Source of the DNA: Eledone cirrhosa
Lineage: Eukaryota
Length of the DNA stretch: 64,000 nucleotides
NCBI GenBank assembly: GCA_964016885.1
Contig: OZ024745.1
Coordinates: 39,122,001 to 39,186,000, forward strand
Direction: 5' to 3'
Shown: positions 1-43,804 of the stretch, one piece after another
Layout of the letters: each line of letters begins with the position of its first letter
Position numbering within the stretch: the first letter of the stretch is position 1
The notes under the pieces: generated by a model
What the model was told of the DNA's origin: nothing
The model's database searches: none
What the model saw: only the letters and a program-made list of their open reading frames with translations
Made by a program: the position numbers and the translations under genes

Positions 1-600
1 GTTCCAGCTTATTAGCTATCGTCAACAACGTATACCTTCTTGCCAGATGATTGAACGTCCGAAACTATATACTTTCCTTATGTATATTAACGGCTGAGCA
101 GACTAATTTGCATATCGAGTTGGTTAGTCGGCCGGGTGCACCGAAAACGATAAACGAAAAAATGAAACGAAATTTCATTTCCCACTCTTAGTACGGCTGT
201 TACTTAAATATAAGTATGTGTACGTACATACATATATGTATACAGACGTACAGTAGTATGTATATATATATACATACATGCACACATATATATATGTACG
301 TATGGATTGACCGAACATTTATTATAATGCTCGGTGTGTTTGCAAACAAACATCCCGTATTAAGCCGTAGTGTCTAGCAACCATCATTGCTCGTTTGTTC
401 AACACTGACAAAGGAATGCTGTACTAGTTGCAAGCTTATTAGCTATCGTCAGCAACATATACATTCCTGCCAGATGATTGAACGTTGTTTACAAACACAC
501 CGAGCATTATAATAAATGTTCGTTGAATACATATGTACATATATACATGTGTGCATGTATATATATATATACATACTACTGTACGTCTGTATACATATAT
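1..600 (-). mobile_element. Non-coding PLE-type HHR element, family C (partial tandem plus inverted arm)
   Basis: 150-487 matches 9793-10130, 1-105 repeats part of the unit, and 487-600 is the reverse complement of ~230-350. A minus-strand HHR is present. Confidence 0.65.
416..458 (-). ncRNA. Type I hammerhead, family C (GAAA mutated to GCAA)
   Basis: Reverse complement: atgttg CTGACGA t agct aata agct t GCAA ctag TA cagcat. Confidence 0.6.
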
Positions 601-607
601 GGTAAGA

Positions 608-733
608 ACCCCACGGCTTGAGCTCAGCCGTCGGGGTCCTACCCGTCCCTATTACCCACTCTACCACCCTAACTATTGAGTACTTTGGTGTGTTATGGTC
701 CATCTGGTTCCTTACCACATTTCCTTCGTTATA
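608..733 (+). mobile_element. 3'-terminal fragment of the PLE family at 5075-6897
   Basis: cggcttgagctcagccgtcgggg...acccactctac...ggttccttaccaca...cttcgttatat matches 6780-6897 and ends in (TA)n. Confidence 0.6.
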
Positions 734-852
734 TATATATATATATAGATATATATATATATATATATATATATATATATATATAAAAGACGTAAGATAA
801 GAAAATATTTTAAAAAATACTTTGAAAAATTTTTTTACTTACTTAAATTTTC

Positions 853-934
853 ACTCCAACTAATTAGTTTCTGCAATGGGATAAAGACAGTTACGTAATC
901 CAACTGTCGAGAATTTATTGCGTCATCAGGGAGT
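853..934 (-). ncRNA. Type I hammerhead, family A (inverted arm)
   Basis: Reverse complement of the motif at 1805-1886. Confidence 0.8.
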
Positions 935-39042: not shown

Positions 39043-39081
39043 CTAGCAGAAAAACCACCCTTTCGGGTGGTTTTCTGCTAG
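39043..39081. repeat. Near-perfect 17-bp hairpin bounded by CTAG
   Basis: ctagcagaaaa(a)ccaccc tttc gggtggttttctgctag. Confidence 0.85.
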
Positions 39082-40084
39082 CATGTGTAGTGTGTACATT
39101 GAAATTATACGCAAGTATATTTACATGTAGATATGACACGTCAAATAACATCGTAATTGACAATATACACAGATATTGAACGAAGACTGGGTTACACTGT
39201 CTTATTTAATCAGTAACGTAATGCATAATACATTAAAAATAAGACGATATTATATATACACTGCATTAGGAGAAAATTAGTGACAGAAAATGAATATGTT
39301 TATTTAAGCGATAGCCACCGGAAGTGTTGACATTTGAAAATGTTAAAGAAATGAATCTTTAAATAAATAATAAAATATATTTAATGGACAGCTACGAAAT
39401 TAGTAGATCAATTATGTAATATTCATTCATTATTTATTCAAAGTAATCGAACTTATTTTACAAACGGGATAAAAAAGAAATAAACCGTACGCAATCCCGC
39501 AGCCCTTCTTTATAATAGTTTAGATACCTAACTTTGCGTCTATATCTCCAGTATCGTAAATATTTAAATTTCCAGTTCAAACGAATATATTTCTGCTTTG
39601 TCTAATTTTTCGCAATCAATTCAATACTACAAATACACACTTAAAAAAAGTTCAAATATCCTTTCAATTACAGATCTCCTTCGATTTAAGTCGAATTTTA
39701 TGGACTTAGTTGTTCTACCACTGTATACATATATGTTGTTTTAGTGCGTCCTTCCGTATTAGGTGTGAACGGGATGAACAAAAATGATTGGTTGTCTTCA
39801 TGTCACATTCCGCTGCTCTGACATATTATAAATACAACTGTAGCCATTCGCAGTAGAGAATATTCTAATTGCCGTTCGACAAAAAGTAACCCCCACCTCA
39901 AACCTTATCCTTCATTATTTTGTAAAAATATATCTCCTAATAATCCAACACTATCTCTCTCTCTCTCTCTCTCTCTCTCTCTCTCTCTCTCTCTCTCTCT
40001 CTCTATTTATATATATATATATATATATATATATATATATATATATATATATATATATATATATATAGTAATAATAATAAATTA

Positions 40085-40300
40085 GAAGACTAAAATCCAA
40101 AGAGGGCTCGATAAGGATAAATATATATCAAATATATAAGAACCGTAGAGCAAATAATTATTAAAATCACAGATTAAAGTTTAAGCAAAGAATCGCTGCT
40201 TTCACACTTAACGGGATCTCTTGAAAGCCAGAAGATACCGTTATGTGTGAAAGCAGCGATTCGTTGCTTAAACTTGAATCTGTTATTTTAATAAATAAAT
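40085..40300. mobile_element. Short family J inverted element
   Basis: Minus arm 40085-40220; plus arm 40226-40300 with CAGAAGA..GAAAgca..tgcTTaaact. Confidence 0.75.
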
Positions 40301-40869
40301 ATATATATATATATATATATATATATATATATATATATATATATATATATATATGTATAAAGAAAAAAGATGAAATCGAAAATGCAACTGGAGACTTATT
40401 TTAAAAATAAATATATATTTATTTAGTTGAGATGGAGGGTCTGTGATCTTTCTCACATTAGATGTGAGACATATATATATATACACACACATATATTCAT
40501 CAAAGACAGTTTTGAACAAACGGATCACGATTAGTCACCGGCCCAGCTTCAAATCGGATCGCTTGTTTACAAAAGAATTGAAGATTATTATTACTGTTCG
40601 ATATAGCCCAAACATACATATGTATATGTATATTTTTGTTTATATGCATATATGCATGAATATGTATGTATGTATGTATATATATATATATATATATATA
40701 TATATATGGGTGTGTGTGTATGTACGTGTGTACGTGTGCATAGTTACATTTATTATGCATGATGTGTGCTAGGGCGAGAAATAAAATGTTAATTATATGC
40801 ATATATATATATATATACGTATATAAATATATATATATATATATATATATATATATATATATATATTTA

Positions 40870-43804
40870 TATAGAAGTGGATGGATACTTCAACAGGTAC
40901 AATGTACTTGTAGAAATATTCAAGTTGTTTATAATACATGTGGTTCCAATCTTTCGGAATGATGAAACCGTCGGTAACAGCATCTGAACAGGTGATTGTT
41001 TAATCATTTTTTAATTTATTTAGAAAATTGTTTAATAACCGTTTGTTTCGCTACTTTTATATTGTTCTGGTATCTCGAATTAGTGCCATTGAACCACATG
41101 TATTATAAACAACTTGAATATTTCTACAAGTACATTGTACCTGTTGAAGTATCCATCCACTTCTATAATTTATTCTCCTTACGTAGAGAACAAAACGTTG
41201 AATAATGCCGCTAATTTTAGTGGCAATTCGACATGTTTATAATATCCAGCTTTTATCAGCGACCTGATTTGCGTGTGTGTCACTTTAACGGCTTGACCGC
41301 ATGCGTTGGGCAGGGAGCATAATATTTACTTGCTATACCTTATAGCGTGGAAATAGGGCTGTCTGAAGATTCATTTCTTTCCATTGGAAATTCGTTGGAT
41401 TTCCAATCTTTCGGAATGATGAAACCGTCGGTAACAGCATCTGAACAGGTGATTGTTTAATCATTTTTTAATTTATTTAGAAAATTGTTTAATAACCGTT
41501 TGTTTCGCTACTTTTATATTGTTCTGGTATCTCGAATTAGTGCCATTGAACCACATGTATTATAAACAACTTGAATATTTCTACAAGTACATTGTACCTG
41601 TTGAAGTATCCATCCACTTCTATAATTTATTCTCCTTACGTAGAGAACAAAACGTTGAATAATGCCGCTAATTTTAGTGGCAATTCGACATGTTTACAAT
41701 ATCCAGCTTTTATCAGCGACCTGATTTGCGTGTGTGTCACTTTAACGGCTTGACCGCATGCGTTGGGCAGGGAGCATCATATTTACTTGCTATACCTTAT
41801 AGCGTGGAAATAGGGCTGTCTGAAGATTCATTTCTTTCCATTGGAAATTCGTTGGATTTCCAATCTTTCGGAATGATGAAACCGTCGGTAACAGCATCTG
41901 AACAGGTGATTGTTTAATCATTTTTTAATTTATTTAGAAAATTGTTTAATAACCGTTTGTTTCGCTACTTTTATATTGTTCTGGTATCTCGAATTAGTGC
42001 CATTGAACCACATGTATTATAAACAACTTGAATATTTCTACAAGTACATTGTACCTGTTGAAGTATCCATCCACTTCTATAATTTATTCTCCTTACGTAG
42101 AGAACAAAACGTTGAATAATGCCGCTAATTTTAGTGGCAATTCGACATGTTTATAATATCCAGCTTTTATCAGCGACCTGATTTGCGTGTGTGTCACTTT
42201 AACGGCTTGACCGCATGCGTTGGGCAGGGAGCATAATATTTACTTGCTATACCTTATAGCGTGGAAATAGGGCTGTCTGAAGATTCATTTCTTTCCATTG
42301 GAAATTCGTTGGATTTCCAATCTTTCGGAATGATGAAACCGTCGGTAACAGCATCTGAACAGGTGATTGTTTAATCATTTTTTAATTTATTTAGAAAATT
42401 GTTTAATAACCGTTTGTTTCGCTACTTTTATATTGTTCTGGTATCTCGAATTAGTGCCATTGAACCACATGTATTATAAACAACTTGAATATTTCTACAA
42501 GTACATTGTACCTGTTGAAGTATCCATCCACTTCTATAATTTATTCTCCTTACGTAGAGAACAAAACGTTGAATAATGCCGCTAATTTTAGTGGCAATTC
42601 GACATGTTTATAATATCCAGCTTTTATCAGCGACCTGATTTGCGTGTGTGTCACTTTAACGGCTTGACCGCATGCGTTGGGCAGGGAGCATAATATTTAC
42701 TTGCTATACCTTATAGCGTGGAAATAGGGCTGTCTGAAGATTCATTTCTTTCCATTGGAAATTCGTTGGATTTCCAATCTTTCGGAATGATGAAACCGTC
42801 GGTAACAGCATCTGAACAGGTGATTGTTTAATCATTTTTTAATTTATTTAGAAAATTGTTTAATAACCGTTTGTTTCGCTACTTTTATATTGTTCTGGTA
42901 TCTCGAATTAGTGCCATTGAACCACATGTATTATAAACAACTTGAATATTTCTACAAGTACATTGTACCTGTTGAAGTATCCATCCACTTCTATAATTTA
43001 TTCTCCTTACGTAGAGAACAAAACGTTGAATAATGCCGCTAATTTTAGTGGCAATTCGACATGTTTATAATATCCAGCTTTTATCAGCGACCTGATTTGC
43101 GTGTGTGTCACTTTAACGGCTTGACCGCATGCGTTGGGCAGGGAGCATAATATTTACTTGCTATACCTTATAGCGTGGAAATAGGGCTGTCTGAAGATTC
43201 ATTTCTTTCCATTGGAAATTCGTTGGATTTCCAATCTTTCGGAATGATGAAACCGTCGGTAACAGCATCTGAACAGGTGATTGTTTAATCATTTTTTAAT
43301 TTATTTAGAAAATTGTTTAATAACCGTTTGTTTCGCTACTTTTATATTGTTCTGGTATCTCGAATTAGTGCCATTGAACCACATGTATTATAAACAACTT
43401 GAATATTTCTACAAGTACATTGTACCTGTTGAAGTATCCATCCACTTCTATAATTTATTCTCCTTACGTAGAGAACAAAACGTTGAATAATGCCGCTAAT
43501 TTTAGTGGCAATTCGACATGTTTATAATATCCAGCTTTTATCAGCGACCTGATTTGCGTGTGTGTCACTTTAACGGCTTGACCGCATGCGTTGGGCAGGG
43601 AGCATAATATTTACTTGCTATACCTTATAGCGTGGAAATAGGGCTGTCTGAAGATTCATTTCTTTCCATTGGAAATTCGTTGGATTTCCAATCTTTCGGA
43701 ATGATGAAACCGTCGGTAACAGCATCTGAACAGGTGATTGTTTAATCATTTTTTAATTTATTTAGAAAATTGTTTAATAACCGTTTGTTTCGCTACTTTT
43801 ATAT
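40870..43804 (+). repeat. 457-bp tandem array (~6.25 units, 40945-43804) preceded by a 77-bp inverted piece (40870-40946); candidate retrozyme B
   Basis: Period 457; units near-identical; (TA)n on both flanks; one HHR per unit. Confidence 0.93.
41358..41438 (+). ncRNA. Type I hammerhead, family B (further copies at 41815-41895, 42272-42352, 42729-42809, 43186-43266, 43643-43723)
   Basis: gctgt CTGAAGA t tcatt..ttggaaattc gttg gatttccaa..aatga t GAAA ccgtcgg TA acagc. Stem I is GCTGT/ACAGC; GUA cleavage is predicted after 41433. Confidence 0.88.

What the first reader, a model, noticed from the sequence alone, without database searches (positions are those of the whole stretch)
150..43804. 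One insertion geometry: inverted arms with both 3' ends pointing outward
Seen in at least ten elements (150-600, 783-3740, 5075-6897, 7166-7550, 24788-25523, 26863-27068, 31715-32025, 36238-37075, 37124-37370, 40085-40300, 40870-43804). The left arm carries the HHR/ORF sense on the minus strand and the right arm on the plus strand, usually with (TA)n outside. The rule was predictive: it led me to the family C ribozyme on the minus strand. Known: PLEs often have an inverted partial pLTR at the 5' end. Inference: twin priming from both ends of a break in (TA)n, using TAT microhomology in the RNA.
Basis: partly seen in the sequence, partly recalled or inferred. Interest (0 to 1): 0.7.

Follow-up and report, generated by a model that had tools for sequence, protein, structure and literature searches.

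The report
Penelope elements copy from both ends
Penelope-type jumping genes and their small ribozyme-bearing parasites sit in TA repeats as two back-to-back arms that almost always end at two different fixed points of the element, which likely means both cut DNA ends start copying the same RNA, a testable answer to how these elements insert.

Summary
Ten of the 11 listed elements are head-to-head insertions with both 3' ends outward. 24788-25523 is not one insertion, and four boundaries are wrong. The elements are Hydra-like Penelope-like elements (PLEs) and hammerhead retrozymes. Head-to-head arms and a one-sided tail are already published.

Tests on about 340 other loci add four points.
(1) All 46 two-armed loci of two young families are head-to-head.
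(2) The two outer ends use two different fixed sites, A and B, 55-145 nt apart: 147 A/B pairs against 10 same-site pairs. Family G is an exception.
(3) Both arms carry the same variants (70 of 70 comparisons).
(4) In 14 of 102 pairs the arms share no sequence, so one cannot be a fold-back copy of the other (window example 38513-38591).

A bulged RNA hairpin follows site A in nine families, and site B in the three where one was found. Best reading: twin target-primed reverse transcription on one RNA by a likely dimeric enzyme (0.72). No RNA or biochemical data. Earlier notes of this scan reached the same reading on other DNA of this genome and in other genomes.

The parts
1..484 (-). 431-bp hammerhead repeat (family A431), left arm; the array continues 277 bp left of the window to its fixed end; degenerate type I hammerhead at 452
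485..601 (+). A431 right arm, ending at a non-canonical site inside an internal TA-like tract
781..1376 (-). 555-bp retrozyme left arm, 1.07 units, outer end at site A, hammerhead at 929
1377..3741 (+). 555-bp retrozyme array, 4.3 units, hammerheads at 1810, 2365, 2920 and 3475, outer end at site B; bulged hairpin behind site A at 1967 and in each unit
5068..5329 (-). Family B (Hydra-like PLE) left arm ending at site A
5330..6897 (+). Family B right arm with GIY-YIG ORF remnant (5700-6074), 80-nt tail, end at site B; hairpin at 6824
7027..7342 (-).
7330..7545 (+). Family E right arm, hammerhead core at about 7454, end at site A
24806..25517 (.). Not one insertion: two inward-facing tail copies (24806-24903 +, 25410-25517 -) around a separate family C copy (24920-25170 +, hammerhead at 24984) and a TA tract
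26865..27066 (.). Family G: left arm 26865-27030 (-) with a minimal hammerhead, right arm 27031-27066 (+); both end at the same site
31709..32113 (.). Family F: left arm (-) ends at A, right arm (+) carries the hammerhead at 31927 and an 86-nt tail to B; hairpin at 32032
36220..37075 (.). Family D (Hydra-like PLE end): left arm (-) with 85-nt tail ends at B, right arm (+) ends at A
37126..37365 (.). Family H: head-to-head, degenerate hammerhead on the minus arm, both ends at A (exception)
38513..38591 (.). Unlisted family D insertion with non-overlapping arms: 38513-38559 (-) lies upstream of site A, 38560-38591 (+) is the distal tail only
40069..40297 (.). Family D: left arm (-) with tail ends at B, right arm (+) ends at A
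40870..40946 (-). 457-bp retrozyme left arm, 77 nt, wholly inside the tail, end at site B
40944..43804 (+). 457-bp retrozyme array, 6.3 units, six type I hammerheads (41363 to 43648), end at site A; hairpin at 41064 and in each unit

Best explanation
These head-to-head insertions end at two fixed sites of the element, one per arm, and were likely made by twin target-primed reverse transcription, in which a likely dimeric Penelope-type RT-endonuclease would nick both strands of (TA)n and extend each 3' end on the same RNA. Shown: the geometry, the two end sites with TAT at each, one site per arm, shared variants, non-overlapping arms in a minority, and direct (target-derived) flanks. Inferred: the self-complementary (TA)n target lets both strands pair with UAU; each subunit is placed by a bulged hairpin just 3' of its site; the two cDNAs stop at unrelated points or at RNA hairpins and are joined through 0-5 nt of microhomology. 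Overlapping and multi-unit arms would need strand displacement on a circular monomer, or a tandem transcript. One-armed copies would be events in which only one primer was extended.
For: Young families: 37 A/B against 1 same-site pair (binomial p 5e-6 and 1.5e-5). Older families D, B, E, F, H and C: 101 against 7. Family K: 9 against 2. One-armed young copies use either site (18 A, 11 B). The B arm lies wholly at or after site A in 12 of 93 pairs and 2 of 9 in K. In 40 of those 93 the tail-less arm reaches further 5', so neither arm contains the other. Variants fixed in one arm are present in the other in 20 of 20 and 50 of 50 comparisons, against 4% and 25% for random pairs. The 5' ends of the two arms are scattered around the unit. 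The hairpin follows A in nine families with different, fully paired inner stems, follows B in 555, B and weakly 457, and predicted site A in K. In vitro, an anole PLE nicks and extends both strands, starts at two sites and is modelled as a dimer (PMC11167929, main text read).
Against: In the 457 family every one of 21 pairs is geometrically compatible with fold-back, against 3.5 incompatible pairs expected from shuffled arms (p 0.017); 555 shows 3 of 16 incompatible; combined p 0.13. Many short copies turn at intrinsic RNA hairpins, as self-priming predicts. There are ten same-site pairs, family G is same-site in 2 of 2, and 41 pairs with a non-canonical or unreadable end were left out. In vitro there was no difference in start site between strands, and priming was at a site not homologous to the target. 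The hairpin is absent from A431 and C, and no A-ended copies of family M were found (biased sample). Loci are the best 37-40 of up to 4,743 candidates per search, not a random sample.
Confidence: 0.72

Rival explanations
1. One priming event, then the cDNA (or an antisense RNA) folds back and primes itself; the endonuclease resolves the hairpin at the other site. This joins the self-priming proposal of Arkhipova 2013 and the endonuclease-resolution remark of Craig 2021.
For: Published proposals (PMC3846280 passages; PMC8557442 passages). Junctions cluster at intrinsic palindromes in B, E, F and H and in the A/T tract of 555. All 21 pairs of 457 are nested. It also predicts shared variants.
Against: It cannot make arms that share no sequence (14 of 102), nor, without an extra step, pairs where neither arm contains the other (40 of 93; 3 of 16 in 555). 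Loops are often over 100 nt. It may still account for a subset.
Confidence: 0.12
2. Dual priming: a dimer holds two RNA molecules, one per DNA end, with asymmetric use of A and B.
For: It needs no strand displacement and explains overlapping, independent arm lengths (Spearman -0.25 and -0.19, not significant). Two RNAs from one source locus would be identical.
Against: No discordant arm pair in 70 comparisons despite several co-existing haplotypes. B arms often stop within or just past the tail (16 of 23 in 457, p 4e-4, post hoc), as if meeting a complex on the same RNA.
Confidence: 0.12
3. Independent one-armed insertions piling up in TA hot spots, or assembly fold-back artefacts.
For: The window is a nest of insertions, and 24788-25523 is such a coincidence.
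Against: Junctions have no TA spacer, orientation is 46 of 46, ends are A/B, arms share locus-specific variants, flanks are not mirrored, and short reads show opposite-strand joints.
Confidence: 0.03

Closest known systems
Insertion units of endonuclease-positive PLEs, e.g. Pen2a_Av (Arkhipova 2013, PMC3846280) and Fig. 2 of Craig 2021 (PMC8557442)
   Same: Head-to-head inverted 5'-truncated copy; tail present on one of the inverted repeats; AT-rich or (TA)n targets.
   Different: Tails are 55-145 nt, not 30-40. The one-site-per-arm rule is counted here (147 against 10). Non-overlapping arms argue against the published self-priming reading.
Hydra clade of PLEs (Craig 2021)
   Same: C-terminal GIY-YIG, CxCX5C linker, CxxC and CxH motifs, (TA)n targets in families B and D.
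   Different: No hammerhead was found in the B or D repeats by my scan; no phylogeny was built.
Animal non-LTR retrozymes (Cervera and de la Pena 2020, PMC7229834; Li 2026, 10.64898/2026.07.22.740005)
   Same: Non-coding tandem units with a type I hammerhead in each; proposed PLE derivatives; more-than-unit copying from circles was already proposed (PMC4209133).
   Different: Multi-unit arrays on both arms of an inversion with PLE-type A/B ends. The word 'inverted' does not occur in PMC7229834 and occurs once, in a reference, in the preprint.
PAc (Poseidon) in vitro reaction (Frangieh 2024, PMC11167929)
   Same: Both strands cut and extended; two start sites bounding the tail; dimer model.
   Different: There, starts did not differ between strands and were not homologous to the target. 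Here each event uses both sites, with TAT matching the target in most families.
LINE-1 twin priming (as described in PMC2837659)
   Same: Two inverted pieces of one RNA primed from both target strands.
   Different: The second site is fixed rather than variable, there is no poly(A), arms usually overlap, and two-armed events are common (46 of 75 sampled young loci).

Membership tests
Hydra-clade PLE (families B, D) | C-terminal GIY-YIG endonuclease downstream of RT | tested here: met
   RT (YRDD) and GIY-YIG pieces in order in related loci (L083, L105, L089, L125). Pfam found no family in 3 of 3 pieces, so the call rests on motifs.
Hydra-clade PLE (families B, D) | CxCX5C linker, CxxC and CxH motifs, no CCHH motif | tested here: met
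   Read by eye in the translations against section 11 of PMC8557442.
Hydra-clade PLE (families B, D) | Insertion into (TA)n | tested here: met
   Flanks.
Hydra-clade PLE (families B, D) | Canonical hammerhead in the repeat | tested here: inconclusive
   None found in B, and one weak hit in D, with my descriptor on decayed copies.
Hydra-clade PLE (families B, D) | RWK and DKT motifs; placement in an RT tree | not tested
   No N-terminal ORF piece was examined and no tree was built.
Non-LTR retrozyme (555, 457, A431) | Non-coding tandem units, each with a type I hammerhead | tested here: met
   The stems fold. Rfam listed no hammerhead among the 150 rows shown. Units of 457 and 555 bp exceed the 150-450 bp quoted in PMC7229834.
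Non-LTR retrozyme (555, 457, A431) | Self-cleavage and circular RNA in vivo | not testable with these tools
   No RNA run was available.
Non-LTR retrozyme (555, 457, A431) | Target-site duplication | tested here: inconclusive
   Shared interruptions on both flanks in 12 of 72 loci against 3.2 in shuffles; this may reflect a pre-existing patterned tract.
LINE-1-type twin priming | Inverted pieces of one RNA without duplicated sequence | tested here: inconclusive
   Met in 14 of 102 pairs; most pairs overlap.
LINE-1-type twin priming | Variable internal second priming site | tested here: not met
   The second site is fixed in each family.

The most novel reading that the evidence does not exclude
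Hydra-type Penelope elements insert by two-ended priming as their normal route: a dimeric RT-endonuclease is placed on one RNA by a pair of bulged hairpins, each subunit primes one cut end of (TA)n at its own site, and on circular retrozyme RNA both run rolling-circle with strand displacement. One reaction would then explain the inverted repeat, the one-sided tail and the tandem arrays.
Probability: 0.45. Interest if true: 0.75.

Novelty: new variant of a known kind. Interest (0 to 1): 0.55.

Why it matters
How PLEs, the closest relatives of telomerase among retroelements, make inverted repeats and one-sided tails is stated as unresolved in PMC8557442 and PMC11167929. The A/B rule, the non-overlapping arms and the paired hairpins turn this into specific predictions for an in vitro system that already exists. 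They also tie retrozyme insertion to PLE enzymes by footprint, and warn that palindromic repeats in (TA)n are often misread as MITEs or artefacts.

Tried and rejected
Rfam: only microRNA-type matches to TA repeats and palindromes, all below their gathering scores, in the 150 of 167 rows shown. A first hammerhead regex missed long stem II forms and was replaced (block shuffles gave 1, 1 and 0 hits, each with a core mismatch). Pfam did not recognise the GIY-YIG or RT pieces of B and D.

Expression: no RNA holder listed, which is no evidence either way.

The nested-arm test in the two young families did not decide between fold-back and twin priming. Exact junction mapping failed for 10 of 22 loci in 555 and 5 of 24 in 457. 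The hairpin prediction was inconclusive for family M, because the query favoured B-ended copies.

L014 was dropped as a duplicate of L009. RT slippage as the source of the flanking (TA)n was considered; mirrored flanks were not seen. The autonomous partner of the 555 and 457 families was not identified. No protein fold, complex or tree was run.
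Full report
Setting. The window is G000:C5:39122001-39186000 of a 3.0-Gb genome, 34% GC and rich in (TA)n. An earlier scan note names the genome as an octopus; I did not test that. Family letters below are mine.

Observation. Self-BLAST recovered all 11 inverted pairs. A type I hammerhead descriptor found intact ribozyme motifs in every full unit of the 555-bp array (781-3741) and the 457-bp array (40870-43804), and in the 431-bp family. Degenerate cores in E, F, G, H and C were read directly. 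A GIY-YIG remnant orients B and related loci orient D. Ten elements are head-to-head. The element 24788-25523 is two inward-facing copies of a tail sequence around an unrelated family C insertion; this polarity is inferred from 18 related loci that share only the tail. Several boundaries missed a tail on one arm.

Genome tally. Each search scored only the best 37-40 of 37 to 4,743 candidates, so samples favour intact copies. For 555, 22 of 37 loci were two-armed (one duplicate dropped); for 457, 24 of 38. All 46 were minus-then-plus. Each family has two fixed 3' ends, A and B, both after TAT. Two-armed loci had one of each: 555 had 16 A/B, 0 same-site, 5 with a non-canonical end and 1 at a contig edge; 457 had 21, 1, 1 and 1. 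One-armed loci used A 18 times and B 11 times. Older families, counted over all loci held: D 21 A/B against 1 same-site, B 15/0, E 21/3, F 15/0, H 21/2, with 33 further pairs having an unassigned end, many from reference mismatch; C 8/1; K 9/2. Searches also listed 5 tail-to-tail contacts against 100 head-to-head. Tails are 55-145 nt. Family G showed one end site in about 28 copies and same-site arms in 2 of 2.

One template. Variants fixed in one arm were present in the other in 70 of 70 comparisons (29 loci; a site can count from both arms), against 4% and 25% for random pairs. Many such variants occur at one locus only, yet in all its units. This fits repeated copying of a monomer such as a circle, as proposed in PMC4209133 (passages), but a homogeneous tandem transcript is not excluded.

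Fold-back or twin priming. A fold-back copy must lie inside the arm it copies. In 12 of 93 A/B pairs of the older families and 2 of 9 in K the B arm lies at or after site A and shares nothing with the A arm; one example is in the window at 38513-38591, and one H case is a poor alignment. In 40 of the 93 the tail-less arm reaches further 5'. Against this, all 21 pairs of 457 are nested (3.5 non-nested expected, p 0.017); 3 of 16 in 555 are not; combined p 0.13. Many short copies turn at intrinsic hairpins. Of 19 mapped 457 junctions, 15 overlap by 0-5 nt.

Target and artefact checks. Both flanks were TA-rich in 39 of 44 two-armed and 18 of 28 one-armed loci. Interruptions of the TA tract recur on the same strand on both sides in 12 of 72 loci against 3.2 in shuffles. 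Illumina RAD reads from three runs of one study show opposite-strand joints at seven position pairs in 457 and at nine of the 15 joints shown for D.

Cis element. A hairpin of the form RYTC, inner stem, loop, inner stem, 2-nt bulge, GARY starts a few bases after site A in 555, 457, B, D, E, F, H, I and K. The outer stem varies as ACTC/GAGT, GTTC/GAAC and GCTC/GAGC, with different paired inner stems. The motif alone is not rare (23 window hits, mostly repeat units, against 5-15 in shuffles); its position is the evidence.

Mechanism. Most likely (0.72) a dimeric RT-endonuclease nicks both strands of self-complementary (TA)n, each 3' end pairs with UAU at its own site on one RNA, both are extended, and the two cDNAs are joined. 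Cleavage, the dimer, hairpin binding, circles and strand displacement are inferred.

What is known. Head-to-head arms and a tail on one inverted repeat are in PMC3846280 (passages), which proposes self-priming on an antisense template, and in PMC8557442 (passages and section 11). PMC11167929 (main-text section read in full) shows extension of both strands and two start sites, with no strand difference. Retrozymes: PMC7229834 (passages) and the 2026 preprint (first quarter and passages). Twin and dual priming: PMC2837659 (passages). Searches found no paper that applies twin priming or a one-site-per-arm rule to PLEs. The library lacks most subscription papers; Arkhipova 2006, Evgen'ev and Arkhipova 2005 and Pyatkov 2004 were not read, and no supplements were opened, so the rule may be drawn there. 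Earlier notes of this scan reached the same reading; they are not independent evidence.

Verdict. The geometry is real and known. The counted asymmetry, the non-overlapping arms and the paired hairpins make an open mechanism testable. Interest 0.55.

Noticed in passing
window 781-1376: The 555 left arm has 8 private substitutions in about 600 nt against 0-1 per unit in the array; they are of mixed types, not A-to-G. Faster mutation in a hairpin or poorer polishing.
   Followed up: partly
window 33307-36125 and 56698-60278; 32224-33137: Decayed non-LTR retrotransposon ORFs (RVT_1 hit at 33980-34492, weak zf-RVT) next to (TAA)n tracts; 32224-33137 matches 59365-60278 at 96.5%.
   Followed up: partly
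window 37817-38127, 31288-31459, 61074-61732: Further inverted pairs not in the finding; 37817-38127 is minus-then-plus against its own right arm, and its true sense was not established.
   Followed up: partly
window 613-727; L081, L082, L094, L098, L102: Very short family B copies that turn at an intrinsic palindrome just upstream of site A; they look like MITEs.
   Followed up: partly
window 3741-3757; L033, L041: Some 555 B ends run into (CT)n before (TA)n, where the RNA reads AUCU: compound target or reiterative copying.
   Followed up: no
555 and 457 units: Site A lies 81-86 nt and site B 191-199 nt after the predicted hammerhead cut in both families, and their tails begin with similar sequence, suggesting one helper enzyme.
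   Followed up: partly
window 10325 (-): An isolated intact-looking type I hammerhead just upstream of the A431 copy at 9790-10188.
   Followed up: no
L049, L028, L061: Variants shared by some units only (period three in L049), suggesting duplication after insertion or multimeric templates.
   Followed up: no
window 25809-26071: A 140-bp internal tandem duplication in family D repeats.
   Followed up: no
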